Below are positions 5,146-52,096 of a stretch of DNA of 64,000 bases, piece by piece (position 1 is the first letter of the stretch; the number at the start of each line of letters is the position of its first letter). This DNA comes from a bacterium. GTDB taxonomy: Bacteria > SAR324 > NAC60-12. A program made the translations under genes and the position numbers. The DNA lies in the NCBI GenBank assembly GCA_965233585.1, contig CBDDTI010000408.1, forward strand, positions 1 through 64,000. The letters are read 5' to 3'. Below the pieces are notes generated by a model. That model was not told where the DNA came from and did no database searches. It worked only from the letters and a program-made list of their open reading frames with translations.

Positions 5146-5460
5146 TACTGTGTTGTTTTTTAAGCAGGTCAATGTGTTTTTAGCAGAATGCACGAAGTAG
5201 ATTCTCATAAAAATAACCTATAACTCATCATGTTGGCAGGACCCATCCTTTTTGTTTAATGCTTTATCCTTGATTACCTATAATTACCTAATAATACGAC
5301 CCCTTGCCATGGACCACAAAAATGGAGTACATGATGGTAAAAGGGAGTTTATTGCCATAAACAGCTTTCTGACAAGTCCTGTAATCGTTTCTAACCAGAA
5401 TTGGAACATTCCAATTAATTGGGAGGTTGTGATTGCATTTTGAAATTCTGCTATTATATG
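5146..5460 (+). mobile_element. Truncated copy of a TA-flanked MITE family (TIR CYGTGTTGTTTTTTAACAGG)
   Basis: Homologous to the left part of the complete copy at 52144-52681. The right half is absent. Confidence 0.6.
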
Positions 5461-5501
5461 GTTGAGAGAGAGTCTTTCCCAAAGAGGTTATACATATAGA
5501 G

Positions 5502-5901
5502 CCAGGTTAATTACTTAAATTTTATGTTCATAAAATCCACCCTTCTAAAAAGCAAGTTTTCCTTCTCGTTTTGTGCTTAACTACAGTGACGACCTAATTA
5601 ACCCGACATGAACCGGTCTGGTTAAGAGTCAGTTCCAATTCTGAGAATCGCTCACCCCTCACTCTGGTGTCACACGCTTAAGCACTTTTCAACTCCAGTC
5701 AACGACGCCTTACTTGTTGCCTTTGTTGTCATGCTCACTTATCAATAAGATATGCTTTTGTGGGAACAAAACTCGTGACCACAAAACTCGTTTTACTTCG
5801 TAATCAAAAGAAGTGAAATAAATTCAGATTAGATTTAGCATTCACTTGCGAAAGTCGTCCGTTATTTCTAAGCCTCGTTATAAAAACCTCCCGACCTTTC
5901 A
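5502..5901 (+). repeat. 5' LTR (lacks the first ~8 bp, TGAAGGGT, seen in the 3' LTR)
   Basis: Matches 19599-19973 and ends in gacctttCA, the inverted complement (8/9) of the 3' LTR start TGaagggtc. aataaa near 5817. Confidence 0.9.
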
Positions 5902-5903
5902 CG

Positions 5904-5912
5904 TGGTGGCAG
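5904..5912 (+). promoter_or_regulatory. Primer-binding site, tRNA-Leu-like
   Basis: TGGTGGCAG 2 nt after the LTR CA; complementary to a tRNA 3' end CUGCCACCA. Confidence 0.7.
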
Positions 5913-5958
5913 GCGAACCCTTTTCGGGGGGTAACAGCCTTTGGCTTAATACTCCATT

Positions 5959-8900
5959 ATGCAACGTGATGGAGATGAAGAACTCCCAACAGGGGCCCAA
6001 GCAGCTGGACCTAGTACCCTTTCGGACGTACTAGCCACACTCCAATTGTCTGCAGACTCAGAAGCACAGGTTACTTCTTTTATCGACTCTCTCGCGCATG
6101 GTCTAAATGGACCCCGCTTTCGTAAATTGTTAACCTATATCCTCAAATTTGTGGAATTAAATAGGTCTAAATATGAAACACTCCGATCGGAGCAATCACG
6201 TCTTACTAACCTAGCAAATTCCAATCGGGATGAGCTGAACCAAATATTAACAGTATTACAGGAACGACTGCCACCTGTGGCTCCAGTTCCTAGGGTTCCT
6301 GCAGTGCCAGCAGTGGCAACGCAATCTTTTCAGGATATTTCTACTGCAGTGCCAACAATGGCAACGCAATCTCAGGCAGCTATGCCTTCCGCGCCAGCAT
6401 TGGCACCTCAGGTCTCACAAGCAACAGAACCACCAGCCTCAATGGCCTCGGCTTCTGTACCTGTGCAGCCCTCTGCTTTTCAGCCAGTCCCTCCGACTGC
6501 TGGTGCGAGTTATTACGGAGCACCTGCGACGTTTACTCCTAGCATTCAAAACCCAGACGGAACCGTCTCTCGTAGAATGGACCAAGTAGGTAATAACGTC
6601 ATGGTTACCTTCTCTGGTAACGACGACATGGCCTCTAGAAAAGCCAAACTTTTCGGCTCCGCCGCTAAGTATGACATTTTTACTGGTCAAGACATGAGCA
6701 AGTTTCCCGAATGGGTAGCACAGTTCTTGTCTGGGGTTAATTTGTTTCAACCTACTGAGCCCAATGCTTGTAGGATTGCTTTACATTTGCTGAAAGACAA
6801 AGCCGCAGAAATGTCGAAAAATGTCTCTCAGAATATTACGATGCAGAACTTGCAGGAACTCCTGACAACTCTCGATCGTATTTTCAATACCTCTGGAAAT
6901 CGTATCGTTGCGGTCGGTCTCTTTAACGGTTTTACTCAGCGCGAAGACATGCCTGTACAAGATTATGCGATTAAAATTGAACAATTGTTTTATCGAGCGT
7001 ATCCTGGCTTGAACCCTGATTTGTCTATGTTCCTTATGGATCGTTTCATTACTGGTCTAATCTCGACAGAGGTTAAGCAAAAGTTGCGCATACCACCTTT
7101 GCCCAGCTATTTCCGTGAAGCGGTTGAAAAAGCCATGTCAATGACTGCAGCAATTTACCATGGGGACCAAATAATGAAACAACGGTCCATGGCTTGGAAA
7201 ATGGCGGCATCTGCCAGCAATCCATTGAACACGAAGTCATCCAAGAGTCCCAGGGGACATATTCAGATGATTGAGACTCAAGATTCTCCAGCCACAATAC
7301 AAGTGCTGAAGAAATGGTGTTCTTTGCATAAAACGGATAAACATTCCAACAGCGATTGTAGAGCTCAGAAGGAGACTGCGCCCTCTGGCTCCAGCTCTAA
7401 AACCGCCGCAAAGAAGCGTCCCAAGGGATCTGAGAAGCGAAAAACTAAACCCAGAAAGTTGAAATTCAAATCGACCTCTGACAAAAAGAAGTTTTTGCGT
7501 TCAATTGAAGACACGGAAGGGGTTTCTCTTGAGAGCGCCAGCTCAGACGACGAAGAAGTCGTTGAACAAAGTCTCATGCAACTCGATCCTGCCTCTGGTG
7601 GAACTTCGGATGAAGATGAAGGGGAACTCCACATACTGATGTTGAACCCAGACTCATTACTAGATGACCCCGACATCAACATGTCTAACGTCTTCTTAGA
7701 TCCATGCACTCCGTCTGGAACTTTGGGTCCAGGGGTAAGCGGTTTGCGACTGGAAGGGGAAAAAGCAGACTCCCCGATGTCGACGAAGACTGGAGATTAT
7801 TCTTCAAGATTCAGTCCTCTAGACGCAACCCTGCTGAACACTTCAACCATGAACACTCCCGTCGTTCAAATTCCAACCATCAAGGATGAGCAAAATCCTT
7901 TCTCCCCTGAGCAGCTTCCCATGGAAGAAGATGTGTTTCCTCCTCTAGCTGCTAACAGCATCAATCCTGATGCAAATGCCACAGCATGTTCAGCCACCCA
8001 GAACTACATCCTCTATGGAGGAGTTTACTATTATCCGGTCCCACCTCCGCATAATGTGGTTGTCTCCCAATCAGCGGTCCCAAAACCTGATTTGGTTCCT
8101 GTCCCCGCTGAACCAACATTGGATGCAGTACCTCCGGTAATCCCTTCGGAGATTCCGTTACCTGCTACTGACACTGAAGCGGAAATTGACTCCAACATGT
8201 CCGCTCCCGCAGCTAACACTCCATCAACTTCTGCCACAACCAATGACACCGTCACTGAACCTCCTGCAAACTCCAAGACTCAGGGCAGTTCGGATTTCGC
8301 AGTGCCAACGGGAACTACTTCCAAGAAGGCCAGGAGGAAATCAAGACCTAGATCAAGGTCTTCATCGTCCCGCAATTCTGAGCCTTCCCAGACTCGTCGC
8401 TCTCCAGGAGCCATTCCTGATTTCTTGGTAGACGCCCAGAAAGTCCGTGGTATCGGCCGAGGAAAACCCAAGGACACTGTTCCATCACCAGCGCCGATTC
8501 CTTTCGCTGGAACCACTCTCCCGAAGGAGAACCTCAAGATTACCGTTCCTTCTGGAAACGGGCCCAGGAAAGTGGAAATACTTCCCGACTATCCTGCCAA
8601 CATTGCACATTTGGCCGGATTGGAGAATGAGACTCGAGGACAAGTAGAAGCTCAACTCTCTTCCACCATTAAGGACGACTTCTCTGTCCAACTTCCTCAA
8701 GAAGACCCTCAAGAGGATTCGGAGATTGACGTTCTCACCGGAGAAGTCCAAAGTCCCAAGACAACTCCGATCCAATTTTCATTTCAGGCTCTCTCTATTT
8801 TGGAGGACCACCAACGGTTCGCCCAAGAAGTTCTGAAATTGGAAGCCGACACTTGGGATCGCAACAAAGTTGAGCGCAATCCCAGTCTGTTCTATCACGC

Positions 8901-9675
8901 CTACTTCTTGGACCAACAGAAGCTCCATGAAGTGAGACAGAGAGGAAACATTCGGATCCAACAATTCAACGTCAAGGTCACCAGACAGCCCTCTGACACT
9001 GACACTCCCACTAATAGCCGGTACAACCGTGAGAAGCTAGAAGCAAAGTTCAAGGTAGCTATTAGTAACCTCTATCATGCATTCGAGGAAGCTTTCCAGT
9101 TCGAGAGCTCCGAGTTCATAGAGGATCTCAGCAACCATTTGGTCAAGAACTCCGTTGCCCAGATCACTAGCCTCTTCGCCAGCTCTAGGTGCCGGACATG
9201 TCACCGCGGCCGACGAATGGATGCCACTTGGAGACTTCGCAGGTTTGAAACCTTGCTACCATTCCTCTCCGAGATCCCTGCAGAGTCTTATCGCCGAGCT
9301 GAGGATCATAGAGCTCACGTCCTATTGGATAAGACTGCCTTGGTCGCTGACGAGACCGTCTCCGACAAGTTTCGGCTAGGTTTCACGTTAGAAGACCGAA
9401 GGAGTTACGCCTCTCTTACTCCGGAAGAGAAGAAGTCCTTCAATGAGGAGCTCGCTGTCTTAGCGAGAAACAATTCCCTAATGAGAATGTCCCGAAGATG
9501 GGAGAGTTGCAAGTTCGAATCTCCCGCGCTGGACATAAACCTGGGACATCAAGCGTTCCAGAAGATGCGCCAGCTGAGGCGACAGAACCTCTTGCCAGTG
9601 GCTCAGATGCTACTTCACAGGTATCGCGACCGATACGAGCAGCTCGTTAGTCGCTTCGGGAAATCTCAGTCATAA
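5959..9675 (+). CDS. gag: Gag-like ORF1 (1238 aa): coiled coil, capsid-like domain, CHHC zinc knuckle, long acidic/Pro-rich linker, unknown C-terminal domain
   Basis: ATG just after the PBS. Retrotransposon capsid-like segment (IFTGQDMSKFPEWVAQF...TQREDMPVQDYAIKIEQLFYRAYP...DRFITGL). C-x2-H-x4-H-x4-C knuckle CSLHKTDKHSNSDC at 7318-7359. Confidence 0.85.
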   Translation: MQRDGDEELPTGAQAAGPSTLSDVLATLQLSADSEAQVTSFIDSLAHGLNGPRFRKLLTYILKFVELNRSKYETLRSEQSRLTNLANSNRDELNQILTVLQERLPPVAPVPRVPAVPAVATQSFQDISTAVPTMATQSQAAMPSAPALAPQVSQATEPPASMASASVPVQPSAFQPVPPTAGASYYGAPATFTPSIQNPDGTVSRRMDQVGNNVMVTFSGNDDMASRKAKLFGSAAKYDIFTGQDMSKFPEWVAQFLSGVNLFQPTEPNACRIALHLLKDKAAEMSKNVSQNITMQNLQELLTTLDRIFNTSGNRIVAVGLFNGFTQREDMPVQDYAIKIEQLFYRAYPGLNPDLSMFLMDRFITGLISTEVKQKLRIPPLPSYFREAVEKAMSMTAAIYHGDQIMKQRSMAWKMAASASNPLNTKSSKSPRGHIQMIETQDSPATIQVLKKWCSLHKTDKHSNSDCRAQKETAPSGSSSKTAAKKRPKGSEKRKTKPRKLKFKSTSDKKKFLRSIEDTEGVSLESASSDDEEVVEQSLMQLDPASGGTSDEDEGELHILMLNPDSLLDDPDINMSNVFLDPCTPSGTLGPGVSGLRLEGEKADSPMSTKTGDYSSRFSPLDATLLNTSTMNTPVVQIPTIKDEQNPFSPEQLPMEEDVFPPLAANSINPDANATACSATQNYILYGGVYYYPVPPPHNVVVSQSAVPKPDLVPVPAEPTLDAVPPVIPSEIPLPATDTEAEIDSNMSAPAANTPSTSATTNDTVTEPPANSKTQGSSDFAVPTGTTSKKARRKSRPRSRSSSSRNSEPSQTRRSPGAIPDFLVDAQKVRGIGRGKPKDTVPSPAPIPFAGTTLPKENLKITVPSGNGPRKVEILPDYPANIAHLAGLENETRGQVEAQLSSTIKDDFSVQLPQEDPQEDSEIDVLTGEVQSPKTTPIQFSFQALSILEDHQRFAQEVLKLEADTWDRNKVERNPSLFYHAYFLDQQKLHEVRQRGNIRIQQFNVKVTRQPSDTDTPTNSRYNREKLEAKFKVAISNLYHAFEEAFQFESSEFIEDLSNHLVKNSVAQITSLFASSRCRTCHRGRRMDATWRLRRFETLLPFLSEIPAESYRRAEDHRAHVLLDKTALVADETVSDKFRLGFTLEDRRSYASLTPEEKKSFNEELAVLARNNSLMRMSRRWESCKFESPALDINLGHQAFQKMRQLRRQNLLPVAQMLLHRYRDRYEQLVSRFGKSQS

Positions 9676-9710
9676 CGATCTCCGATTCCCCTCCTTTTTC
9701 TCACTTTACT

Positions 9711-12700
9711 ATGTCACAGCCAGTAAGCGGTATCTTCTCTCAAAAAGACACAAAGGATCTAATCAGTTCCTGCCGAACTATCTCTTCTTCTTTACCCAAA
9801 CTTCTTCCTGTTCGACTCAATGGACGAACAGTTATGGCTCTTGTCGATAGCGGCAACAGTTTCTGCAACGCTTTATCATTGTCAGTGGCTAAGAAGATCC
9901 CGATTACGGATTATCAGCCATACACTGGTTCTCCAGTAGGCACCGCTTCCGTCGGTTCTAGCATTAATATAGTGGGAATTGTTCCCTCTATTAACTTTTA
10001 CATTCCTGACGACACCGGGAAGGAACATGTGTTACCATCCCGACTTGTCCTCGTCAAACATCTCTCTTGCGGCCTCAACATTTCATTACCTTTCTTGGTT
10101 GAACATGGCCTAGATTTAATTTTATCTCAAGGAATTCTCTCAAAGAGTCCAGAGAATCTTCGTTTTCCGTTGTATCGGAACATCAATCATGCTCGCCGAC
10201 GTCTCAAGAAGCAAATCGACGCAGTCCCCCAGATTAATGTTGTCACCATTGGCGACCGATCTACCACCGCCTACAGCAAGATGCGCCAAACTATTCCACC
10301 CAGAACTGGGAAACTTATTCCGGTTCGCGTAGAAGAAACCGAAGTACAAGATCCAACAGATTCTGTTTTTAATTTTAAAGATTCTTTTATCCGCAAAATA
10401 AATAGTCTTCATCCTGATCAGGATGACATCTATTTCGGTCTGAATTCTTTAGAACAAATCACTTCTATCTCCGACACAAACGAGGTCGAAGTATACTTTT
10501 TCAATGAATCTCCGCATTCCGTGACTATTAGCAGTAACTGTGATATTGGCACTATTCTGATTCCAGAACATCACCGCTCTGTCATAAATATGACTAAAGT
10601 TATGACCATTACAGAGAAACCTTCAAAACCGTCCGATTGGATGAGCAATATTCCTTCCAGTAAACTAACTCCCGCATCACATGAGAAGCGACGCGAACAC
10701 ATTCGACAAGTGTTGAACTTTCGCGATAATCCTATCCTACAGAAGAACCCTCGCACCTCTGGACAAATAATTGATTTGATTATGAGTTTTTGGGATGTCT
10801 TCTATAGAGAAGGAAATTGCGGTGGAACTGATGTCATTGAGCATCCCGTTTACACTCCCAAAGGACTTCCACCTATTCGCTTGAAGAACCGTCCGATCAA
10901 CCCTGGTTTGACGGAGTCTCTTAAAGAACAGATAGCCGTATGGCTAAAAGATGGTGTTATTCGTTCCGGAGGAGTCTCTCCCTGGAATTTTCCTCTTCTC
11001 CCAGTTCGAAAAAAGAATGGAAAATGGAGATGGGTAGTTGATTTTCGAGCTCTTAATTCTGTCACTCGAAAAGACTCCTTTCCTATCCCAAACATCATCG
11101 AGCTTTTAAGCTATCTTCGGAAAAGCAAAATTTTCACTTCTCTGGATCTTGCCCAAGCTTTTCACTCCATTCCCGTCCGCGAAGTTGACCGCGAAAAGCT
11201 TTCTTTTTGTGCTCTAGATAAGTTTTATCAATTTTGTCGAATGCCCTTCGGGCTAACCAGTGCTCCTAACACTTGGGCACGACTGGTCACTCAGGTGTTA
11301 CATGAGATTCCGAAATCTCAGCTCATCGTCTTTTTTGACGATCTTCTTATTCACTCTCCTGACCTAACTACACATGTTGATACCCTTAAACAGGTTTTTG
11401 TCCTGTTACAAAAGGCTGGGTTAAGGCTCAATATGGAAAAGACCGATTGGGTCAAAACGGAAGTGAAATTCCTTGGACACCTAATCTCCGACCAGGGGGT
11501 ATCCGTTCCTCCCGAATTTTCTCAGATCATCAAGGATTGGCCATTGCCCAAGACTTTGAAGGATCTCAGAGCCTTTCTCGGAAAGTGTAACTATTACCGA
11601 AGTCACTTCCAAAATTTTGCGATTATTGCTTCACCCTTAATGGCCCATCTCAAAGGTGCCAGTGAAAGTTCACGCAAGTTGGACCTGGAAAAAGATCCTA
11701 AAGCAATTGCTTCCTTCGAGTCTTTAAAACAATTGCTCATGTCTCCGCAGTTGTTGGCCTATCCTGACTTTGATAGCTCCGAACCTTTCATAGTTGATAC
11801 TGATTATTCTCACGAAGGGTTAGGTACAGTCCTCTCGCAGATCCAAGATGGGATAGAAAGACCCATTTCATTTAACGCTCGCAGACTGAAACCAAGCGAA
11901 TCCCAGTACGCTTCCCATAAGGGAGAATTACTTGCTCTGATCTTCGCTATAGATACCTACAAATTCTTCCTGACTGGTAGAAAGTTCCTTGTCCGTACTG
12001 ATAACTCTGCCTTATCTTGGCTGAAAACTCAAAAAGATCCTAAGGGTATCTTGATGAGGTGGTTGAGAATCATCAGCAGTTATGATTTCGACATCCAACA
12101 TCGAGCCGGTACCAAGCATGGTAACGCGGATTCTTTGTCTCGAACCTCTCATGCTCCTTTCCTCTCTGAAAAGGAAGCTCAAGAGATCCTGGCCGATGAT
12201 CAGATCCTCTTGCTAGGAGAAGCTCCTGAAGATGATGGCCAAGAATCTGAAGACGAGGATTCTCTCAGCGAATCCGACGACACTGATCCTCGCATTCCAC
12301 ACCAAACCGAATTTCCGGTTCCCCAAGGTCCCTATGAGGACGATATCATTGAGAAACAACAGACTGATATCACCTTATCCAAGATCTCCGCCTGGGTCAG
12401 ACAACAGCACAAACCTACCTCACAAGAGTACAAGCTACTCAACCCAGATGAAAAGTTTTATGTTGATTGCTTCGAGTATCTGGAAATCCTGCCTTCCGGC
12501 CTCCTCGTTCGAAATCCCATTCCTTTCACCAATGAAAAGGATGTTCGGATTCCTCTTCCTGAGAAACTCTGGAATAAGGTTCTCGCTTCCTTCCATGGCA
12601 AAAATCATGCCGGTGGAAATTCTCTGGCTGATTGTGTACAGCTAAAGTACATATTCCCCCGTCTAGTTAGCTTTTGCCGGGAATATGTATTCAAATGTCC

Positions 12701-14147
12701 TCGCTGTCAGAAGCTATCCAACAAAAAAGCTCAACGCCATACGTATGGTTATGACCTTGTTGGAAGTCCTGGAGAGAAGATTTGTCTCGATTTTGTCGGA
12801 CCTCTCAAACCAACAAAGAAAGGACATACTTCTCTGCTCACCGCCGTTGACGTTTACACTCGCTGGTTCACCGCCTGGCCAGTTAAGAATCAGAAGGCTG
12901 AGACTGTCATCAAATTCCTAGTTAGGGATTACTTTCCAGACCGTGGCGTTCCTTCAGTAGTTCACTCTGACAATGGACCTGCCTTTATTGCACATGTTTT
13001 TCAAGTGGCCATGGCAGCCTTTGATGTTCGAACTACCACTACGCCGGTTTACAATCCCAAGAGCAACACTGTTGAGCGATTTCATCGCAGCATGAAGCGC
13101 AAACTTACTGCTCTGATCCATGAATTCGACGACGAATGGGACGAAGCTCTACCTGCTACACTCTTAGCAATGAGAACTTCAGTCAACCGCACCACTGGTT
13201 TCACTCCGTTCTACCTTGAACATGGTAGAGAAGCCAGATTACCTGTCGACATGATCGCTGGACCTCCGCCTGTTCAACCCGAACATCTTGACAAGTACAC
13301 AGATAAGATTCGGAATCAATTCGCGAAAGCTTTTTCTGTTGTAACTGAACGTCAGAATTCTTACATAATGCGCCAAAAGGAGCTGTATCGAGAAAGGCAA
13401 CACAAGATCAACATTGATGACCTTGTGTGGCTCTTCACCGACCGAGCCAACCCTAGCCTCAACCGAAAATTCCAATCCTTTTGGTCTGGACCTTACAGAG
13501 TTGTTAAACAGCTTTCCAACACTATTTTCGAGATCGAGTCCTACGGAAGGTGGACTAAGAGTAAGATCGTCACTTCCGCAGCTGTCGATAGACTCAAGAA
13601 GTGCTACGTCACCGATCCTGACACCAACTTGGGCGTACCAGTAGAGTTGACTGCCACAGACGTTCGTCCTTACTTCGAAGACCAAGAGCTGTTAGGAAGG
13701 CTACCTGCCTCTGACTTCGCTCCACATGTCTTTGACAAGGAACAAGAACTTCCAATGACGTTACCATCACCCTCTCCTAGGGATGATGTCCCTATCACTC
13801 CCCTTGCTGACGGACAGTCTTTTGACCCTCCGGTTTCTGTACCTGTCCCGCAAGATCCTGAACCCGCTGTTACTGTTCCGGTAACCGCAGAACCACTTCC
13901 GGAAGCTCCTCCCGAAGTCACAGTTGTACCTAAAGCTGAACCCCAAACAGAGCCAGCATCTCGTAGAGGTCGAGGACGACCTCCGGGCAGAAAGAATAAG
14001 CCCAGACCTTGTCCTAACTGCACGCCCAATCTTCCATGCGTTACTCACTGCACACAATGCAAAACCGGTTCCGCATGTGAACAGCACACTGCAAGACAAA
14101 GATGTGCTAAGTGTACTCGTACTCGGACATGTCCTGCTCACTCATAA
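9711..14147 (+). CDS. pol: Pol polyprotein (protease, reverse transcriptase, RNase H, integrase with GPY/F and unusual C-terminal tail)
   Basis: PR ALVDSGN. Ty3/gypsy RT motifs SPWNFPLLPVRKKNGKWRWVVDFRALN, LDLAQAFHSI, RMPFGL, FFDDLLI. RNase H DTDYS..ELLAL..RTDNSAL. IN HHCC plus D(LDFVGP)-D(HSDNG)-E(VERFH). WSGPY. Confidence 0.97.
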   Translation: MSQPVSGIFSQKDTKDLISSCRTISSSLPKLLPVRLNGRTVMALVDSGNSFCNALSLSVAKKIPITDYQPYTGSPVGTASVGSSINIVGIVPSINFYIPDDTGKEHVLPSRLVLVKHLSCGLNISLPFLVEHGLDLILSQGILSKSPENLRFPLYRNINHARRRLKKQIDAVPQINVVTIGDRSTTAYSKMRQTIPPRTGKLIPVRVEETEVQDPTDSVFNFKDSFIRKINSLHPDQDDIYFGLNSLEQITSISDTNEVEVYFFNESPHSVTISSNCDIGTILIPEHHRSVINMTKVMTITEKPSKPSDWMSNIPSSKLTPASHEKRREHIRQVLNFRDNPILQKNPRTSGQIIDLIMSFWDVFYREGNCGGTDVIEHPVYTPKGLPPIRLKNRPINPGLTESLKEQIAVWLKDGVIRSGGVSPWNFPLLPVRKKNGKWRWVVDFRALNSVTRKDSFPIPNIIELLSYLRKSKIFTSLDLAQAFHSIPVREVDREKLSFCALDKFYQFCRMPFGLTSAPNTWARLVTQVLHEIPKSQLIVFFDDLLIHSPDLTTHVDTLKQVFVLLQKAGLRLNMEKTDWVKTEVKFLGHLISDQGVSVPPEFSQIIKDWPLPKTLKDLRAFLGKCNYYRSHFQNFAIIASPLMAHLKGASESSRKLDLEKDPKAIASFESLKQLLMSPQLLAYPDFDSSEPFIVDTDYSHEGLGTVLSQIQDGIERPISFNARRLKPSESQYASHKGELLALIFAIDTYKFFLTGRKFLVRTDNSALSWLKTQKDPKGILMRWLRIISSYDFDIQHRAGTKHGNADSLSRTSHAPFLSEKEAQEILADDQILLLGEAPEDDGQESEDEDSLSESDDTDPRIPHQTEFPVPQGPYEDDIIEKQQTDITLSKISAWVRQQHKPTSQEYKLLNPDEKFYVDCFEYLEILPSGLLVRNPIPFTNEKDVRIPLPEKLWNKVLASFHGKNHAGGNSLADCVQLKYIFPRLVSFCREYVFKCPRCQKLSNKKAQRHTYGYDLVGSPGEKICLDFVGPLKPTKKGHTSLLTAVDVYTRWFTAWPVKNQKAETVIKFLVRDYFPDRGVPSVVHSDNGPAFIAHVFQVAMAAFDVRTTTTPVYNPKSNTVERFHRSMKRKLTALIHEFDDEWDEALPATLLAMRTSVNRTTGFTPFYLEHGREARLPVDMIAGPPPVQPEHLDKYTDKIRNQFAKAFSVVTERQNSYIMRQKELYRERQHKINIDDLVWLFTDRANPSLNRKFQSFWSGPYRVVKQLSNTIFEIESYGRWTKSKIVTSAAVDRLKKCYVTDPDTNLGVPVELTATDVRPYFEDQELLGRLPASDFAPHVFDKEQELPMTLPSPSPRDDVPITPLADGQSFDPPVSVPVPQDPEPAVTVPVTAEPLPEAPPEVTVVPKAEPQTEPASRRGRGRPPGRKNKPRPCPNCTPNLPCVTHCTQCKTGSACEQHTARQRCAKCTRTRTCPAHS

Positions 14148-14209
14148 GCAGATATAAGAGGCCCATCGAGGGGAGGCCTCATTCAGTCCATCCCTCGCTC
14201 TCAATTAAC

Positions 14210-17200
14210 ATGAAGATTTCTCTTCTTTGGTTGTCCTTCATTGCCATTATCTTGGGCGAGAAACAGCCTATTTACATTCCTTATGACTACTACGATTTGT
14301 GGCTAGTAGTTGGGAGTAATTCAACAGGCCGACTCTTCTTCAATCCGATTCCGGATTCACGACGGATCTTTATCTGGAAGCCGAACAATGCCTCAATACC
14401 TCCGACGCTCTTCTTTGAAGACTATCCGGAGATTTTACAAGACGATCTTTCGACAACTTCCTCAGAAATTTTTGAGGGAACTGTTTCATCGAGTGTTCCT
14501 AACACTTCTCCAACAACTCTTGAGGAGACTGAGGAAACACTTTCCCCGACACATCCTTCCGGATACTTTTCAACTGACACTGTTGCAACAGCAGCCTTAG
14601 AACGTCCTCCACCTGGGAAGCACAAGAATGCTACCAATAACGTACCAGGTATGAGTTTATTGCAGCTACATAGTTCTTTGCAACTTGCAGAAATGATGAA
14701 AACGTTGAGTCCTCAGCCAGCGACTCCTAACCTTCCTGTTCCACCTCAAAGGAACGAAACCTTTACCACTCGTCCTCCTAGCACTGCCAAAATTGTCGAT
14801 GCTAAAGACGAAATAGATTTGACGAGGGAAGGATCCCGTCTCTACCAGCTTCGGAAAGAGAAGACGCGATTGAAGAGACAAATCTCACCTGATGCTGCCA
14901 CTGAGCTAAACCTCAATGATGCCCAGCTGAACAGTTTGCAAGCTCAAGTCAATCGGCGATTCCTTACGGGATACGATTGCGCCAATCCTCAGGAAGTCAA
15001 ACCCATCAGTTCATTCATTCAAGATCCTTGTGAACCGATTGGAGCTAATGACCAAGACAACTACGAGATTGGCGATAAAGCGCAGTATCAAATCGTCCAA
15101 TACGAAACTCGAAGAGAGTTTAAAGGAACTCGCTGTGAACTTCGTATGTCCAGATTCACGTATTATTGTGGAAATGCTGATCACGCAAGTCCATATCCCC
15201 AAGAGACCTATTACAAGAAACCCAAGACTCTTCGTTGGGAACAATGCCGAGATCTGGCCACCCTTGGTCAGTACATCGCTGGAGACGACAAGACGTACAC
15301 TGTCGCTCGCAACACCCGAACCGAAGTCCCTTATTTTGCCTATGGGTCAGCTACAGCCTACACGGGATTCCAGGGTGCTCAAATTTCCTGCACTGGAAAT
15401 ACTATGCTGATCGATGGAAAAGAGATCCATCATATGGTCATGTACATCACCGAAGAAATCCTGTACAGGGACGAAACTTTCGTTACCCGCGATAACGAGG
15501 ATACTGTTGTCGCTCATTACGACAATGTCCGCCTCACTTGTCCCATCGAGGAACAACAATGCGTTGGTAACGATGTCACCTACGTCTGGCGAGTCCCATT
15601 AAAGGAACATTGTCCTTTATACCACATTCGATTCTTCGAAGGTCAAATGATTAAGCATCAAGTAGATGGACTCACTGTCCAGACTAATAAGATTGTAATA
15701 TCCACTGATCAGTCTAATGTTCGTTTTGTTGTTAAAGGAAAAAAGGAAGAATGCGACCAAACGTTCCTTACCACCAACTATCCGGATGTCATGATCAGAG
15801 ATACGATGCTTAACGGCGCTGTCGACCGCAATCTTGTGAAACGACCGATGCCTAAGGACGAGTTGCAACTGAGCAACTTCATCACCAATCGTGACGATTT
15901 CGTCTATCATGCCATCAACCGGAAGATGAAACAAGAATTCTTTTCCGTACTCCGAGACGATTGTAGAGAAACTCTCCGCAAAATCAAGACCGAACACTTT
16001 TTGGAACGACAACTTCCAGGTCTTCATACCTACCGACTTGGTGGATCTAACTACCTTACCGCTGCTGGAGAAGTAGCTTACTTTTATAAGTGCCAACCTC
16101 GCCTTGTCGCAGCCATCCGAGCCGACACTTGCTACGATGCGTTACCGGTCGAAATTGCCAGTCAGAATGACACTCTGACTACCTACTTTCAAGCCGACGG
16201 TCATGAAGCCATCGTACCTCGGTTCTACATTGAGCCTTTAACTCATAGGCTAACTTCTGTAGCCAAAAAGGTCCCTTGTTTGTCGAAATTCTTCGCCCGT
16301 TATCAAGACCTTTTCGGCCAATGGTTCGCTGTCACTCCCAGCATTTCACCAACTGAACCACCAGGCAAACTTGATCTTGAAGCCCTCATAAAAAAGGCTA
16401 CTTTTGATGATTCTTCAGATGTCGACTTGTCCCGAGGAGGGATCTACGAGCCTGAAGCTGTCGATGATCTCATCACCTGGCTAGAAGGAAACAGACGCCA
16501 GGAGGTTATCATGCATCAAATCACCAAACAAGTTGGTGATCTCAGTCCCGGTCAGTACATTACTCCACGGTTAATGTTTCCGCCGCACACATTGCCCGGT
16601 GGATCTTGGCACACCTTTATATTGGGAAAGTTATGGGGTGCTATTCGGGGATTGGGTGAAATCTTCTCTTCTATTTTTGGCCTCTTGATAGTTGGCCGCC
16701 TTGTTTGGTATCTGATAAAGGTTCTGATGAACTGCAGTTATATCCATAGCGTGCACGGTTGTTCAGCCCAGCTCGCTTGGTCTTTTTGTACCGAAGTCTT
16801 TTTCACTAGACTATACAGAAGAGAACAAAAGTCGTCTGCGGAAAGATCCGACAATGACCCTACTTCCAAACCAAAGTTTCCCGTACGAAATCGTATATTC
16901 AACTTTGGCAATATTTTCTCAAAGAATGTCAGCGACACTGACAGAACGGAAACTCCAAGCACCGGAATCCCTGTTCCGATGAATCCTCTTCGACGCAGTC
17001 ACTCCGTTTCTCATCTGAGAAAAGACACTGTATCGACTTGTCCGAACCGTCTGCAGTCCCAGCTCGACAGAGCTTTCGCTGCTTTTCAGCCATGTCCTCC
17101 GGGAATGCCTAGATCTCCCTTCCCTCCGGACTATGTAAACGACCAAAGGGTCGGATCTCCCTTAGACGGAACTAGAGCAACACCATCCGCTCCTGTGGAT

Positions 17201-17383
17201 GTAAATGAAATTTCCCGAGCCGTACCAGAACCACCTCCATTGCCAGAGCGAACTCGAACTCCCAATAGATTTGCTTTCACTCCGATTATAACTCCAGAAG
17301 CCAGAATTCCTCCTATTCCCAATAGGGATCCTGTTATTAATAGGACGCCAAGTGGCGATCCTCCTCCTCTCCCTGGTCGATAA
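14210..17383 (+). CDS. env: Envelope glycoprotein, chuvirus-like / class III (gB-like) fusion protein
   Basis: Signal peptide MKISLLWLSFIAIILG from ATG 14210, S/T/P mucin-like region and furin site RLKR. The ectodomain starts FLTGYDC..PC..YQIVQ..CELRMSRFTYYCG. The C-terminal TM is followed by NCSYIHSVHGCSAQLAW, matching the layout I recall for chuvirus glycoproteins. Long Pro-rich tail. Confidence 0.8.
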   Translation: MKISLLWLSFIAIILGEKQPIYIPYDYYDLWLVVGSNSTGRLFFNPIPDSRRIFIWKPNNASIPPTLFFEDYPEILQDDLSTTSSEIFEGTVSSSVPNTSPTTLEETEETLSPTHPSGYFSTDTVATAALERPPPGKHKNATNNVPGMSLLQLHSSLQLAEMMKTLSPQPATPNLPVPPQRNETFTTRPPSTAKIVDAKDEIDLTREGSRLYQLRKEKTRLKRQISPDAATELNLNDAQLNSLQAQVNRRFLTGYDCANPQEVKPISSFIQDPCEPIGANDQDNYEIGDKAQYQIVQYETRREFKGTRCELRMSRFTYYCGNADHASPYPQETYYKKPKTLRWEQCRDLATLGQYIAGDDKTYTVARNTRTEVPYFAYGSATAYTGFQGAQISCTGNTMLIDGKEIHHMVMYITEEILYRDETFVTRDNEDTVVAHYDNVRLTCPIEEQQCVGNDVTYVWRVPLKEHCPLYHIRFFEGQMIKHQVDGLTVQTNKIVISTDQSNVRFVVKGKKEECDQTFLTTNYPDVMIRDTMLNGAVDRNLVKRPMPKDELQLSNFITNRDDFVYHAINRKMKQEFFSVLRDDCRETLRKIKTEHFLERQLPGLHTYRLGGSNYLTAAGEVAYFYKCQPRLVAAIRADTCYDALPVEIASQNDTLTTYFQADGHEAIVPRFYIEPLTHRLTSVAKKVPCLSKFFARYQDLFGQWFAVTPSISPTEPPGKLDLEALIKKATFDDSSDVDLSRGGIYEPEAVDDLITWLEGNRRQEVIMHQITKQVGDLSPGQYITPRLMFPPHTLPGGSWHTFILGKLWGAIRGLGEIFSSIFGLLIVGRLVWYLIKVLMNCSYIHSVHGCSAQLAWSFCTEVFFTRLYRREQKSSAERSDNDPTSKPKFPVRNRIFNFGNIFSKNVSDTDRTETPSTGIPVPMNPLRRSHSVSHLRKDTVSTCPNRLQSQLDRAFAAFQPCPPGMPRSPFPPDYVNDQRVGSPLDGTRATPSAPVDVNEISRAVPEPPPLPERTRTPNRFAFTPIITPEARIPPIPNRDPVINRTPSGDPPPLPGR

Positions 17384-19590
17384 CGACTCCAGGAGACTTA
17401 TATATAAATTACAAAGGATCAAAATTGATCATAGTAATGTAAAATAAAAGCCTAATAAAATAATAATAATAATAATAATAATAATATCAACATCAAAAGC
17501 CAATCATCAACAATGATCGAAGTACTTTGAAGTCTGACGAACACGATCCGCTCTGAGTCTACCTGTAATCAACATAGGCAAAGCCCGGACCTGATCACCC
17601 GGCGGATCCTTCATCCAAGCTGTCACATGACCTTTCACGTGAAGAACATTTTCCGTTTACATGATTTCTTTCCTTCACCATTGACTGACTTTTCAATGGC
17701 CCAGTACCGAAGAAGACATTCACAAAGGGAAAATAAGCCCTATACTGGTTCAGTGCATGCACTGTGTTTCTCAACACTTCGTCAGCGTACAATATAGTTT
17801 CCCTCGAGAGTTCAAGTGGCCCCATTCCAGTTTCTGAAATTCAATGCACCACCCACGCTCAAGTAGACAAACTACAACGACTTCAAACGCGTACTCGCTT
17901 AGCATCTACAGCCTCTTCCTCAGCAGTTCTCTACAAACAAATTGCGCCGAAAGCCTTCACGATGCGACGCGACGCAACTTCGACGCTCACAAATACACCG
18001 TCCAAATTGTGCCTCACAAGTCAGTCCTCTGACTCCTTTCACATGGAACGGTCATCCGTAACATTCACAGGAAATCAGAACGATGACTCCCGTCACACGG
18101 AACGGTCTTCCGTGTAACCATCAATGATTGAAGGAAAAGTCTCAACTTAGCCTCGACATGAAGACAACTTCGACCACTCACAGCTTTTGCACTTCAACAA
18201 ACCTTGGGTTCTGACGTCTTAGGTGCTTTCCATATGCTTGGCACCAAAGATTTCAAGAATACATCTCCCAGGACTTCAAGACGTTCTTGACCAAGTCTCT
18301 GATCCGTCATCCTCGGCAAGACGTCTCACTTAAGCTCCTTGACCAAGTCTCTGACCCGTCATCCTTGGTTATAGCTCCTCATCACTGACTCAGCAGTTGT
18401 CCGAAGATTACTGTCCAATTAAAGGATTCCAAGCCGCGACATCTTCTTGCATCCTCTGGATTGGCAACCGCGAAGATTCTTGTTAGACCATCGGGATCGA
18501 CGGCCACTGAAGTCGGTCCTGCGTGTCGGTATCTTCCTTCATTTTTTGTCTCAATTCCAGCATGGATCCTGATATTGTGGCTCAAGTCCTTCATAACCTT
18601 TCACAAGTGGTTGTCTGGCCGCCCAGAAACCAAAATGCATCATCGTCCAAAGCTACGTCAGCACGAAATTCACAGTCCTGTTCCAATAGTCCTTCAAAGG
18701 TTTGAGGATAAGGCTATCGAACACCCGAAGTCAAAGTTACCATGTCCAGCTTCAAGTTTCGACCATTCCTCATCATCGTCCAAATCATTGGTCTCTGGTT
18801 CCTTCCAAGCCTCACACAATAGGTCAAGTACTGAACATTGAAGCAATTTGCCTCGCTGGCCCTGCCTCTTGAAATTCCTCAGGGAAAGAAGTTCTAGCTT
18901 CTCCGCACAATTGGGTATAAAGTCGTAGACTAGTACCTCCCTCAGCGGTAGTTGCTATTGCCATTGCTGTTGCTTCCTTTTTTGTTGCACCAATCGTCTC
19001 TGTTGTAACCGCAAATAGGGATCAAGAGATCAATCGAAGGATTCAAGCCATTGCAAATGTCAACCAGCCACCATCTCTGGTGTCTTCGTTAAGTTACTTG
19101 GGGTACTTCGCTAGAGTTCTCCCTTGCAAGCGCGAATTCAACATTTGCCGAAGCCTTCATCAGCACCAAACATGACAACGTAGAAGTCCGAAGTTAGAAC
19201 AATGATGTCAAACTTGCCTCCGAAATCACGCGCTACTCAGGGCTCATGTGCTCCTGGGCATCATTTAGAATAACTTCCACAAGACAAACTAAGAACCGTC
19301 CGACTTATCAGAAGATGAAAATTCACGCTCAGATTCAGTTTCCTGTTAGAATAACGCCTTGGTTCACCTCAAGACCTCAAGACTCAAGACACAATTGCGA
19401 AGAATCGTATTGATCTTGAGAAGTGCATAATGAGTATCCTAAATTTTTGTATATTTTGCCCTTAAGAAGAAACAATTCGGTATGTGAACAACAGCTTTTT
19501 TCAAAGCTCATGCCATAAGCAACGTCCTTAAGCTTCAAACACTCTTGGACGTTCCGTTTCTATTTCCTCAATTTTCTTCTTGGGGGTACA

Positions 19591-19973
19591 TGAAGGGTCC
19601 AGGTTAATTACTTAAATTTTATGTTCATAAAATCCACCCTTCTAAAAAGCAAGTTTTCCTTCTCGTTTTGTGCTTAACTACAGTGACGACCTAATTAACC
19701 CGACATGAACCGGTCTGGTTAAGAGTCAGTTCCAATTCTTGAGAATCGCTCACCCCTCACTCTGGTGTCACACGCTTAAGCACTTTTCAACTCCAGTCAA
19801 CGACGCCTTACTTGTTGCCTTTGTTGTCATGCTCACTTATCAATAAGATATGCTTTTGTGGGAACAAAACTCGTGACCACAAAACTCGTTTTACTTCGTA
19901 ATCAAAAGAAGTGAAATAAATTCAGATTAGATTTAGCATTCACTTGCGAAAGTCGTCCGTTATTTCTAAGCCT
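19591..19973 (+). repeat. 3' LTR (lacks its last 26 bp; fused directly to an F-env fragment)
   Basis: Starts with TG after the short G-run ttgggggtaca. Identity with the 5' LTR stops at ...tctaagcct (equivalent to 5875). Confidence 0.9.
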
Positions 19974-25477: not shown

Positions 25478-25988
25478 ACATTTCTTCCGATCATTTCTAC
25501 ATAAAATACATTTCTTGCTAATGTTGCTCAATCTCAAGATATTAGCATTTTTCTGGAGGCAGTTGTGATCTGTAAACAGAGTAATGATTTGAACACTTTA
25601 ACCTTCTTATCTTCACCTGGAATTTTTTTGAAGGATTTCATTAACATTCATAAGAATGTGTGGTTCTTTTGAAGATTCCAATTGATATCGAAGGGAATTC
25701 CATATCCTAATTCAAAGAAAACAGTGAAGATATCTGAGGTTCACAAACTGATTCATATTCAAAATGATCAACATGTAGCGAGTTCCCAAGAGAGTTGCGC
25801 GTCTGCGTTATCAGAGATCACAGTACTTATGATCCGGTCGAGCCGGCAGCTGTTGTTTACTTCACACGCTTCGCTCAGAAATAAATTCAGTTCATTTCTC
25901 TCGCTTCAACTTCTCGCTTCAGTGGTGACCACTCCGTACAACACGCAACCTTCGAAGAAAAATTTGCCTGAGTCAATAGCTGCAAACG

Positions 25989-26750
25989 ATGGCCAAGGTA
26001 GAGGAAGAAGCCACAGTAGGCACATTGTCGGTCAAATTGCCAACGTTCTGGCCAGACATGCCGGAAGTATGGTTCGCCCAGGCCGAAGCAAACTTCAGGG
26101 CAAGAAGGATCACCAGCCAGAAGTCGAAATTTAACCTGGTTGTGGTGGCGTTGGACGCGGACACGCTGAAGGGCGTACTGGACCTGATTGAACAGGACCC
26201 AGATGAAGAGTCGTACGACCGGCTGAAGGCAAGGCTGGTGCAGGCCTACAAGTTGTCGACAGTCGACAAGGTCAAGCAGTGCATGGAGCTGCAGCCGTTG
26301 GCAGATGAGAACCCGATCAAATTAGCGGACCAGATGATCGCGTTAACCTGGGATGCCACCGCAGAGGATATCGTCAAGACGATGTTCCTGCTTAAGCTAC
26401 CAGATTCGGTCCGCAAAGCCATGTGGGCGGAGCCGCTAAAGGACTGGTCCGAGATGAAGGCCAGGGCAAAAGGGCTATGGCATGCAGAGAAGACCAAACG
26501 CCAGGCTGCCACGTACGAAGTAGCAGGCGCCCGCGCCATCAGCCAAGACGATGAAGTAGAGACGAACGCTGTCCGGTTTAAACCTAAAGGTAAAAATAAC
26601 CAAAATTCTAAAAAGTTTAAAGACTTCGCAGGTACGTTCTACCAACGACCAAATGGCCCGTGCGTGTTCCACGAGTTCTACGGACAATCTGCAACCAGGT
26701 GCCGTTCACCATGCAGTCAGGCGGGAAACGGGAAAGCCGGGCGTCAGTAG
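25989..26750 (+). CDS. gag: Gag (253 aa)
   Basis: N-terminal VKLPTFWPDMPEVWFAQAEANF motif typical of small arthropod gypsy Gags; C-terminal CVFHEFYGQSATRCRSPC zinc finger. Confidence 0.9.
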   Translation: MAKVEEEATVGTLSVKLPTFWPDMPEVWFAQAEANFRARRITSQKSKFNLVVVALDADTLKGVLDLIEQDPDEESYDRLKARLVQAYKLSTVDKVKQCMELQPLADENPIKLADQMIALTWDATAEDIVKTMFLLKLPDSVRKAMWAEPLKDWSEMKARAKGLWHAEKTKRQAATYEVAGARAISQDDEVETNAVRFKPKGKNNQNSKKFKDFAGTFYQRPNGPCVFHEFYGQSATRCRSPCSQAGNGKAGRQ

Positions 26751-40565: not shown

Positions 40566-40569
40566 AGTT

Positions 40570-41259
<690 letters not shown>

Positions 41260-52043: not shown

Positions 52044-52096
<53 letters not shown>

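What the first reader, a model, noticed from the sequence alone, without database searches (positions are those of the whole stretch)
7735..9719. Candidate in-frame intron fusing Gag to Pol and removing the second half of ORF1
Seen: pol is in a different frame from ORF1 and has no canonical X XXY YYZ slippery site in ORF1 phase. Just before pol lie a branch-like cataac (~9671), a pyrimidine tract (ccgattcccctcctttttctcactttact) and CAG ending at 9719. A strong donor G|GTAAGC lies at 7735, downstream of the capsid domain and zinc knuckle. Both sites are phase 0, so splicing would give a 592+1475 = 2067-aa Gag-Pol, while unspliced RNA gives the 1238-aa ORF1. Established: splice-dependent pol expression exists in foamy viruses and plant Ogre elements, but a fully coding retained intron would be unusual. 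Alternatives: a non-canonical -1 slip in the 25-nt overlap 9651-9675 (C GGG AAA), or initiation at ATG 9711.
Basis: partly seen in the sequence, partly recalled or inferred. Interest (0 to 1): 0.75.

Follow-up and report, generated by a model that had tools for sequence, protein, structure and literature searches.

The report
Possible splice-made Gag-Pol, unproven
An intact envelope-carrying Ty3/gypsy retroelement has no frameshift signal between its unusually long gag-like gene and pol, and it carries good splice signals that could join them in frame, but without RNA data this cannot be told apart from pol starting at its own ATG.

Summary
The coordinates, phases and arithmetic are correct. 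The window holds an intact LTR element (LTRs 5502-5875 and 19599-19973) with three genes: ORF1 (1238 aa), pol in the -1 frame, and a class III fusion env.

- **Against frameshifting:** the 25-nt overlap has no in-phase slippery heptamer and no downstream structure. A second gypsy element in the same window has a canonical in-phase GGGAAAC.
- **For the intron:** donor 7735 ranks 2nd of 621 GT. Acceptor 9719 ranks 4th of 837 AG and follows the most pyrimidine-rich 35 nt of the element.
- **Why that is weak:** a GTAAG in ORF1 is expected by chance (1.96 in synonymous shuffles). Phase 0 is the commonest phase among good donors. The donor's Val codon is present in only 3 of 14 ORF1 homologues. No fused Gag-Pol protein appeared among 27 ORF1 and 64 Pol relatives.
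- **Second half of ORF1:** it is a conserved protein ending in an orphan helical domain, found down to 24% identity.
- **Own-ATG rival:** ATG 9711 sits 5 nt before the acceptor, and 13 of 13 close Pol relatives begin with M upstream of the protease. The control baseline for that is already 9 of 13.

No nucleotide sequence or RNA of any relative was available. My odds: splice 0.35, own ATG 0.30, non-canonical recoding 0.10.

The parts
5502..5875 (+). 5' LTR (374 nt)
   Evidence: identical to 19599-19973 except for one indel
5959..9675 (+). ORF1, 1238 aa: capsid-like Gag, a variable linker and a conserved C-terminal domain
   Evidence: 13 near-full-length homologues of 1146-1243 aa at 38-99% identity
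6541..7164 (+). capsid-like domain of ORF1
   Evidence: PNMA Pfam match in 12 of 14 family members (best E 9.5e-7; window E 0.0099, below the cut-off). AF2 model pLDDT 70.4. The first 17 ranked Foldseek hits are all retroelement or retroviral capsids (PNMA2 8rb3 E 1.2e-3, MLV CA, dArc1, Ty3 6r24), none at E<=1e-3
7315..7359 (+). Cys/His knuckle-like motif (W-C-x2-H-x4-H-x4-C)
   Evidence: W456, C457, H460, H465 and C470 are invariant in alignment A1. Zinc binding is inferred
7735..7743 (+). candidate 5' splice site GGG|GTAAGCGGT, phase 0 in ORF1
   Evidence: Ranks 2nd of 621 GT. The Val codon is present in 3 of 14 homologues
8330..8385 (+). Arg/Ser-rich run in the ORF1 linker
   Evidence: S802, S804, S806 and S810 are invariant in A1. 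Function is inferred only
8692..9672 (+). conserved all-helical C-terminal domain of ORF1, ending in [FY]G plus 1-13 aa and a stop
   Evidence: 95 HMMER hits, with 7 distant long proteins carrying it at their very C-terminus. AF2 pLDDT 79.3. No fold match at E<=1e-3 in PDB or BFVD. C-termini
9651..9675 (+). ORF1/pol overlap with no in-phase slippery heptamer. GGGAAAT at 9658-9664 is read as GGG AAA T
   Evidence: No stable structure downstream. No Rfam match
9676..9710 (+). pyrimidine tract (29 of 35)
   Evidence: the maximum for the 13.7-kb internal region, reached by 10 of 13,689 windows
9711..9713 (+). first ATG of the pol frame, with A at -3, 36 nt after the ORF1 stop
   Evidence: It is the only ATG/GTG/TTG between 9651 and the protease (read)
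9717..9719 (+). candidate 3' splice site CAG|, phase 0 in pol, with no AG in 9670-9717
   Evidence: Ranks 4th of 837 AG
9720..9731 (+). CCA GTAAGCGGT: a second copy of the donor motif and a second donor-like site at 9723
   Evidence: The exact 9-mer occurs only at 7735 and 9723 in the 64 kb. 9723 ranks 9th of 621 GT. Both copies are in codon phase
9651..14147 (+). pol ORF: protease (DSG), RT, RNase H, integrase
   Evidence: RVT_1 6.6e-34, RT_RNaseH 2.1e-26, rve 1.5e-17
14111..17383 (+). env ORF with a class III fusion glycoprotein; signal-peptide ATG at 14210
   Evidence: PF24664 Monjiviricetes_fusion, E 9.4e-54
19599..19973 (+). 3' LTR (375 nt)
26723..26729 (+). internal control: in-phase G GGA AAC in the gag/pol overlap of a second gypsy element (gag 25980-26750, pol 26621-29971)

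Best explanation
The element is an intact, recently active env-carrying Ty3/gypsy retroelement. Its clade has a long two-part ORF1: a capsid-type Gag, then a variable linker and an orphan helical C-terminal domain. Pol is a separate ORF. Pol is not reached by canonical -1 frameshifting.

- Most transcripts stay unspliced. They serve as genomic RNA and as mRNA for the 1238-aa ORF1 protein.
- A minority are spliced from the donor at 7735 to the acceptor at 9719. This removes the linker, the C-terminal domain and the ORF1 stop, and joins Gag codon 592 in frame to pol codon 9720. The product is a 2067-aa Gag-Pol, and splicing efficiency would set the Gag to Gag-Pol ratio.

Shown: the anatomy, the absence of frameshift signals, and the strength and phase of the splice-like signals. 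Inferred: that the sites are used at all, and with what efficiency.
For: - **No frameshift signals.** None of the in-phase heptamers starting at 9645-9675, which cover the overlap, is a slippery heptamer. RNA 9664-9760 folds at -6.8 kcal/mol, z +1.59, and 190 of 200 shuffles fold at least as well. Rfam gave 0 matches. The neighbouring gypsy element has an in-phase GGGAAAC.
- **Acceptor.** It ranks 4th of 837 AG. It follows the most pyrimidine-rich 35-nt window of the 13.7-kb internal region and a 48-nt AG-free stretch. All AGs between 9500 and 9710 score 14/24 or less, against 19/24 for 9719.
- **Donor.** It ranks 2nd of 621 GT and is the best in ORF1. It lies in the hypervariable linker after the capsid and knuckle, a sensible domain boundary.
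- **Phase.** Both sites are phase 0.
- **An acceptor here argues against the ATG.** A strong acceptor 5 nt after ATG 9711 would remove that ATG from any RNA that uses the acceptor. The next pol-frame ATG (9834) is 5 codons before the catalytic Asp. The acceptor therefore only makes sense if joined to a coding exon.
- **Precedent.** Coding segments act as introns in an animal Ty3/gypsy element, Cer1 CERV (PMC10309623, supporting-information passage).
Against: - The donor's Val codon is present in only 3 of 14 ORF1 homologues (window, P0004, P0005). No donor-compatible dipeptide column is conserved in the linker.
- A GTAAG in ORF1 is expected by chance: 1.96 in synonymous shuffles against 1 observed.
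- Phase 0 is the commonest phase among good donors, 6 of 13.
- Acceptor-like sites of equal score lie inside pol (11004) and env (16691).
- No fused Gag-Pol protein was found. Among 27 ORF1 relatives searched up to 2172 aa, none exceeds 1243 aa. Among 9 and 64 Pol relatives searched up to 2622 and 3052 aa, none of the 29 with E of 2e-163 or better exceeds 1744 aa, and the 12 of those that include the protease begin at or shortly before it.
- ATG 9711, with A at -3, lies in the would-be intron. All 13 N-terminally informative close Pol relatives begin with M 32-58 aa before the catalytic Asp.
- The removed segment is a strongly conserved protein. The family-wide two-ORF layout would call for a family-wide mechanism, and the donor is not family-wide.
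- A second strong donor-like site 4 nt after the acceptor (9723) would clash sterically with use of that acceptor (inference).
Confidence: 0.35

Rival explanations
1. Pol is a separate protein started at its own ATG 9711, as in foamy viruses. Ribosomes could reach it in three ways: re-initiation after the ORF1 stop 36 nt upstream, internal entry on the unstructured pyrimidine-rich spacer, or a subgenomic RNA spliced to a weak acceptor upstream of the ATG (9620 or 9669). On this reading the donor at 7735 and the AG at 9719 are chance.
For: - ATG 9711 has A at -3 and is the only ATG/GTG/TTG in the open pol frame before the protease. No ATG in any frame lies between the stop and it.
- 13 of 13 close Pol relatives (47-89% identity) start with M 32-58 aa before the catalytic Asp. 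6 of the 13 relatives, and the window itself, have MS within the first four residues.
- ORF1 and Pol are separate proteins in relatives that probably share a contig: P0010 with P0129, and P0017 with P0130, have equal contig lengths.
- The spacer is unstructured.
- The donor codon is not conserved.
Against: - A control undercuts the M argument. 9 of 13 unrelated gypsy Pol ORFs from the same search also begin with M at least 22 aa before the Asp. The collection seems to call non-ATG starts as M: P0134, P0136 and P0139 have M where the family has L, F and A (my reading).
- Four intact distant Pol relatives (P0140, P0143, P0146, P0147; 40-49% identity) have no start upstream of the protease core.
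- A small residue at position 2 occurs in 8 of 14, against a baseline of 0.34. That is not significant.
- Virus-type re-initiation needs stop and start within about 20-30 nt (PMC10275272, passage). Here the start is 36 nt after the stop.
- Upstream acceptors are weak (14/24 pyrimidines or fewer), whereas a strong one sits just after the ATG.
Confidence: 0.3
2. A non-canonical -1 recoding event in the 25-nt overlap, for example at C GGG AAA, gives a 2.7-thousand-residue ORF1-Pol fusion that includes the C-terminal domain.
For: - Pol is in the -1 frame with a short overlap. That is the usual layout of frameshifting animal LTR elements: 28 of 51 in a 2003 survey, as cited in PMC5009743 (passage read).
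- ORF1 always ends 1-13 aa after an invariant [FY]G. This could hide a nucleotide signal.
Against: - There is no in-phase X XXY YYZ. GGGAAAT is one base out of phase.
- Re-pairing at CGG/GAA would be poor (inference from the tandem-slippage model, recalled).
- There is no downstream stimulator: z +1.59, and no Rfam hit.
- The neighbouring element shows what a canonical site looks like in this genome.
Confidence: 0.1
3. The splice-like signals belong to other messages. The donor-like site at 9723 lies four codons after ATG 9711, a layout recalled from avian leukosis virus (gag AUG, six codons, then the 5' splice site). It could serve env or 3'-region mRNAs. 7735 would be a chance or alternative copy of it, and the pol route would remain one of the above, or ribosome bypassing from TCA 9670 to TCA 9714.
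For: - The exact 9-mer GTAAGCGGT occurs only at 7735 and 9723 in the 64 kb. With CCA upstream, 12 nt match apart from one extra GGG codon. Both copies are in codon phase.
- The env start has an in-phase AG two codons after its ATG, at 14215.
- The best acceptor-like site of the element (18560) sits 2 nt before the ATG of a 47-aa ORF in the 3' region.
Against: - A 9-nt match between two 200-nt stretches is not rare in itself: 28% of shuffles reach the score. Only its position is striking.
- The motif is absent from the Pol N-termini of relatives at 79-81% identity, P0126 and P0129.
- A matching landing codon for bypassing is expected by chance in roughly half of cases (my estimate).
- None of these junctions can be tested here.
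Confidence: 0.15

Closest known systems
Plant Ogre elements (Ty3/gypsy): pol reading frame restored by removal of an intron
   Same: Splicing, not recoding, would join the gag side to the pol side. Unspliced RNA would give the upstream product only.
   Different: As I recall it, the Ogre intron is non-coding. I read no Ogre paper; the name came up only as a search term. Here the removed 1985 nt encode a conserved protein domain, the host is an animal, and no junction has been seen.
Cer1 (C. elegans Ty3/gypsy) CERV mRNA
   Same: An animal LTR element uses parts of its polyprotein reading frame as exons and the rest as introns (PMC10309623: abstract, and a supporting-information passage).
   Different: CERV is a regulatory protein made from five exons, not a Gag-Pol fusion. 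Cer1 splicing is verified by experiment, this one is not.
Copia/BARE-type elements: a spliced subgenomic RNA for Gag
   Same: A fully coding intron retained in the genomic RNA sets the Gag to Pol ratio.
   Different: There the splice removes pol to make more Gag. Here it would remove the end of ORF1 to make Gag-Pol. I saw only search listings and the starts of abstracts (PMC3735527, PMC5580714); the details are recalled.
Foamy virus Pol
   Same: Pol with its own ATG, made apart from Gag. This is the rival reading.
   Different: Foamy Pol comes from a mapped spliced mRNA (recalled; PMC7828637 seen only in listings). Here no good acceptor lies upstream of the ATG.
Canonical -1 frameshifting gypsy/errantivirus elements
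   Same: The gag-pol-env order, pol in the -1 frame and a short overlap.
   Different: There is no in-phase slippery heptamer and no stimulator. The second element in the window has both the overlap and GGGAAAC.
TART and SART1 non-LTR elements: gag stop, a short spacer, then the start of the next ORF
   Same: A stop is followed by a spacer of a few tens of nt and then an ATG in another frame. TART has a 37-nt spacer and its mechanism is unknown (PMC5009743 passage). SART1 uses re-initiation (PMC10275272 passage).
   Different: Those are a different class of element. SART1 needs a downstream RNA structure, and none is predicted here.

Membership tests
Ty3/gypsy (Metaviridae) LTR retroelement with env | two LTRs flanking the coding region | tested here: met
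   374/375-nt repeats with one indel
Ty3/gypsy (Metaviridae) LTR retroelement with env | pol domain order protease, RT, RNase H, integrase | tested here: met
   Pfam positions 53-90, 452-610, 684-811 and 970-1136
Ty3/gypsy (Metaviridae) LTR retroelement with env | capsid-type Gag | tested here: met
   PNMA match in 12 of 14 family members. The model's first 17 ranked fold hits are all capsids, with E 1.2e-3 at best
Ty3/gypsy (Metaviridae) LTR retroelement with env | third ORF encoding a viral fusion glycoprotein | tested here: met
   PF24664, E 9.4e-54
-1 programmed frameshift gag-pol junction | pol in the -1 frame overlapping gag | tested here: met
   25-nt overlap 9651-9675
-1 programmed frameshift gag-pol junction | in-phase X XXY YYZ heptamer in the overlap | tested here: not met
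   None of the in-phase heptamers starting at 9645-9675, which cover the overlap, fits. GGGAAAT is out of phase
-1 programmed frameshift gag-pol junction | stimulatory hairpin or pseudoknot a few nt downstream | tested here: not met
   -6.8 kcal/mol, z +1.59. The fold program does not predict pseudoknots
splice-dependent Gag-Pol (Ogre-like) | consensus-like donor and acceptor in compatible phase | tested here: met
   The ranks rest on a rough scoring matrix recalled from memory
splice-dependent Gag-Pol (Ogre-like) | splice sites conserved in related elements | tested here: not met
   The donor codon is present in 3 of 14 homologues (protein level only). The acceptor could not be tested without the relatives' DNA
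splice-dependent Gag-Pol (Ogre-like) | spliced junction present in RNA | not testable with these tools
separately initiated Pol (foamy-like) | pol ATG in good context ahead of the protease | tested here: met
   ATG 9711 with A at -3, 45 aa before the catalytic Asp
separately initiated Pol (foamy-like) | start codon conserved in relatives beyond chance | tested here: inconclusive
   13 of 13 close relatives have it, against 0 of 4 distant ones. The control baseline is 9 of 13
separately initiated Pol (foamy-like) | subgenomic mRNA with an acceptor upstream of the ATG | tested here: inconclusive
   Only weak candidates, 14/24 pyrimidines or fewer. No RNA data
TURBS-type termination-reinitiation | stop and restart codons within about 20-30 nt | tested here: not met
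   35-nt spacer. Criterion from a passage of PMC10275272
TURBS-type termination-reinitiation | upstream motif complementary to 18S rRNA | not tested
   The host rRNA is unknown. CGGGA at 9657-9661 differs by one base from the recalled UGGGA motif

The most novel reading that the evidence does not exclude
[quoted passage not shown] It sets its Gag to Gag-Pol ratio by alternative splicing of a 2-kb cassette that is itself a conserved gene segment. The cassette holds an Arg/Ser-rich linker and an orphan helical domain ending in an invariant [FY]G. The same RNA stretch would then be protein-coding when retained and an intron when removed. The Arg/Ser-rich product might feed back on its own splicing or export.
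Probability: 0.25. Interest if true: 0.7.

Novelty: new variant of a known kind. Interest (0 to 1): 0.5.

Why it matters
How retroelements set the ratio of structural to enzymatic proteins is a core part of their biology. Nearly all animal Ty3/gypsy elements are thought to use frameshifting or a single ORF.

This is an intact element, and by protein evidence a diverged clade, with a conserved 1.2-thousand-residue ORF1, a separate pol and no frameshift signal. Some other mechanism must be at work. If it is splicing of a coding cassette, it would be the animal counterpart of the plant Ogre strategy and the mirror image of the copia strategy. If it is an own-ATG Pol, it would be a foamy-virus-like trait outside the retroviruses.

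Either way, the orphan C-terminal domain of ORF1 is a conserved retroelement protein with no known fold or function.

Tried and rejected
- **Donor depletion.** GTRAG looked purged from the sense strand: 5 observed against 17.5 +/- 4.2 in dinucleotide shuffles, with 27 on the antisense strand. Synonymous-codon shuffles show no depletion: ORF1 3 against 3.33, pol 2 against 4.22. The env part of that script failed on a coordinate slip and was not redone. I dropped the argument.
- **Repeat GTAAGCGGT as a sign of duplication.** The flanks share nothing else, and 28% of shuffles reach the alignment score.
- **Relatives' DNA.** Two scans of genome contigs (bacteria and archaea only) with ORF1 profiles found 0 relatives among 93 and 97 pattern matches. 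An earlier try with alignment A2 was not conserved enough to run. As a result, no nucleotide sequence, host name or genomic context of any relative could be seen.
- **Function of the C-terminal domain.** There was no Pfam match and no usable ESM Atlas hit. Foldseek found 0 matches at E<=1e-3 in PDB and in BFVD. The PDB sequence profile search found 0.
- **Complex prediction.** C-terminal domain against Pol residues 1-420: no answer, score 0.00, controls not run. This is neither for nor against binding.
- **Ribosome bypassing** (TCA 9670 to TCA 9714) and a **TURBS-like CGGGA**. I considered both. Neither is supported beyond chance and neither is testable here.
- **Rfam** at E<=1 over 5400-20100: nothing.
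- **eLife 2026 survey of env-carrying gypsy elements** (PMC13524379). It contains 0 occurrences of 'frameshift' or 'splic'. Part 1 of 34 of its supplementary table 1 lists coordinates only, with no ORF frames. I did not read the other parts or files, and they may list this family.

Full report
**Anatomy.** The finding lies inside a 14.5-kb LTR element. Its LTRs, 5502-5875 and 19599-19973, differ by one indel. It has three long sense ORFs.
- ORF1 runs from ATG 5959 to the stop at 9673-9675 (1238 aa).
- Pol is open from 9651 to 14147 and carries protease, RT, RNase H and integrase.
- Env occupies 14111-17383 and matches the class III fusion family PF24664 at E 9.4e-54.

The element sits in a roughly 1-kb repeat, 39-1041 against 19974-20976 at 91% identity. 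I could not name the host.

**The observation.** The donor G is at 7735 on a codon boundary of ORF1. The acceptor G is at 9719 on a codon boundary of pol. The intron would be 1985 nt and the product 592 + 1475 aa.

**What ORF1 is.**
- Residues 198-405 form a capsid-type domain. PNMA matches 12 of 14 family members, with best E 9.5e-7; the window's own match (E 0.0099) is below Pfam's cut-off. An AF2 model (pLDDT 70.4) gives as its first 17 ranked fold hits only PNMA2, MLV, Arc, HIV and Ty3 capsids, none better than E 1.2e-3.
- A Cys/His knuckle follows.
- The second half is not junk. Thirteen near-full-length homologues of 1146-1243 aa, at 38-99% identity, align over the whole length.
- An exhaustive HMMER search with residues 593-1238 found 95 proteins. 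Seven are long and distant (893-1200 aa, 25-31% identity) and carry the last 300 or so residues at their very C-terminus.
- ORF1 ends 1-13 residues after a conserved [FY]G, or FA/YA in three cases, in all 33 C-termini printed.
- This C-terminal domain models as all-helical (pLDDT 79.3). It has no fold match at E<=1e-3 in PDB or BFVD, no Pfam match and no Atlas lead.
- Between Gag and this domain lies a hypervariable linker with an invariant Arg/Ser-rich run.

If 7735-9719 is an intron, it is therefore a conserved coding cassette.

**Frameshifting.**
- None of the in-phase heptamers starting at 9645-9675, which cover the overlap, is X XXY YYZ. The one XXXYYYZ nearby (GGGAAAT, 9658) is read GGG AAA T and would link the wrong frames.
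- The 97 nt after it fold at -6.8 kcal/mol, z +1.59. Rfam finds nothing.
- As an internal control, a second gypsy element in the window (gag 25980-26750 with DUF7041; pol 26621-29971, -1 frame) has an in-phase G GGA AAC 27 nt before its gag stop.

I therefore rate non-canonical recoding at about 0.1.

**Splice signals.**
- On a rough donor matrix written from memory, 7735 ranks 2nd of 621 GT in the internal region and 9723 ranks 9th. The leader candidate 5931 ranks 28th.
- On a pyrimidine count, 9719 ranks 4th of 837 AG. The 35 nt before ATG 9711 are 29/35 pyrimidine, the maximum for the element; 10 of 13,689 windows reach it, and windows of 28 or more occur at five places.
- All AGs between 9500 and 9710, and all upstream of the env ATG, are weaker.

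Against over-reading these ranks:
- Synonymous-codon shuffles expect 1.96 GTAAG in ORF1.
- Phase 0 is the commonest phase of good donors, 6 of 13.
- Two equally good acceptor-like sites lie inside pol and env.
- An apparent purge of GTRAG from the sense strand vanished under the codon-aware control.

**An unexpected repeat.** The 9-mer GTAAGCGGT occurs exactly twice in 64 kb: at the donor, and 4 nt after the acceptor. With CCA upstream, 12 nt match apart from one extra GGG codon, and both copies are in codon phase. A 9-nt match between two 200-nt stretches is common (28% of shuffles), so only its position is striking. It makes 9723 a second strong donor-like site four codons after ATG 9711. 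It is absent from the Pol N-termini of relatives at 79-81% identity. I cannot explain it. Possibilities are two U1-binding sites, two protease sites, or chance.

**Relatives.** Only proteins could be compared.
- The donor's Val codon is present in 3 of 14 ORF1 sequences. No donor-compatible dipeptide is conserved anywhere in the linker.
- No Gag-Pol fusion appeared. The 27 ORF1 relatives (searched up to 2172 aa) all have 1243 aa or fewer.
- Among 9 and 64 Pol relatives (searched up to 2622 and 3052 aa), none of the 29 with E of 2e-163 or better exceeds 1744 aa. The 12 of those that include the protease begin at or shortly before it. The 2184-2254-aa hits belong to other families at 37% identity.
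- For the own-ATG rival, all 13 N-terminally informative close relatives begin with M 32-58 aa before the catalytic Asp.
- That support is weak. 9 of 13 unrelated gypsy Pol ORFs do the same, the collection appears to call non-ATG starts, and four intact distant relatives have no upstream start.

**Weighing.** ATG 9711 and the acceptor at 9719 exclude each other, because an RNA spliced at 9719 loses the ATG.
- The window's own signals favour splicing: a complete canonical set is present, whereas the own-ATG reading has only the ATG and no good way for ribosomes to reach it. The stop-to-start spacing of 36 nt exceeds the 20-30 nt of virus-type re-initiation (PMC10275272, passage).
- The protein comparisons favour a mechanism that does not depend on 7735.

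I put splicing at 0.35, own ATG at 0.30, other uses of the signals or unknown routes at 0.15, and recoding at 0.10. The rest is unassigned.

**Known relatives of the idea.** Splice-dependent pol is known from plant Ogre elements (recalled). Coding introns are known in Cer1 (PMC10309623: abstract and passages read) and in copia-type elements (listings only). A separate Pol is known from foamy viruses (recalled). The 2016 recoding review reports that 28 of 51 animal LTR elements have pol in the -1 frame, and it notes TART's 37-nt spacer with unknown mechanism (PMC5009743, passages). The 2026 survey of env-carrying gypsy elements does not discuss frameshifting or splicing (PMC13524379). My searches turned up no description of this ORF1 architecture or of a splice-made Gag-Pol in an animal element. 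Those searches cover open-access text only.

**Verdict.** If it is true, it is a new variant of a known strategy rather than a new kind of system.

Noticed in passing
25980-29971: A second Ty3/gypsy element on the + strand. Its gag carries DUF7041 and its pol is in the -1 frame. It has a canonical in-phase GGGAAAC at 26723 in a 130-nt overlap.
   Followed up: partly
17384-19598: 2.2 kb between the env stop and the 3' LTR has no ORF over 76 aa on either strand. The best acceptor-like site of the whole element (AG ending at 18560, 20/24 pyrimidines) lies 2 nt before the ATG of a 47-aa ORF (18562-18705). This may be a small accessory gene reached by splicing.
   Followed up: no
9720-9731 and 7729-7743: CCA[GGG]GTAAGCGGT is repeated at the proposed donor and just after the proposed acceptor, in codon phase at both places. 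The exact 9-mer occurs nowhere else in the window. It puts a donor-like site four codons after ATG 9711.
   Followed up: partly
8330-8385: An Arg/Ser-rich run in the ORF1 linker, with four invariant Ser across 14 homologues, is followed by an RGxGRGK motif. It recalls RS domains of splicing factors and the phosphoregulated tails of some viral core proteins (recalled).
   Followed up: no
9640-9675: ORF1 ends 1-13 codons after a conserved [FY]G (FA/YA in three cases) in all 33 C-termini examined, down to 24% identity. The cause, whether a protein or an RNA constraint, is unknown.
   Followed up: partly
14210-14215: The env signal-peptide ATG is followed two codons later by an in-phase AG (ATG AAG|). 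This mirrors ATG TCA CAG| at the pol start.
   Followed up: no
13990-14147: The last 45 or so residues of Pol are Cys-rich, with several CxxC-like spacings. The end of this tail overlaps the start of the env ORF.
   Followed up: no
39-1041 and 19974-20976: The element is inserted in one copy of a roughly 1-kb repeat (91% identity between copies). Each copy has an ORF of 283-294 aa with no Pfam match. No clear target-site duplication was seen.
   Followed up: partly
40069-43500 and 47299-64000: Satellite arrays with 10- and 20-nt periods. A large, nearly perfect inverted repeat has arms at about 47.3-52.7 kb and 58.6-64 kb.
   Followed up: no
5876-5958: The sequence most like a primer-binding site (TGGTGGCAGGCGAACCC) starts 28 nt after the LTR end rather than next to it. 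The only donor-like site in the leader is GGG|GTAACA at 5931.
   Followed up: no
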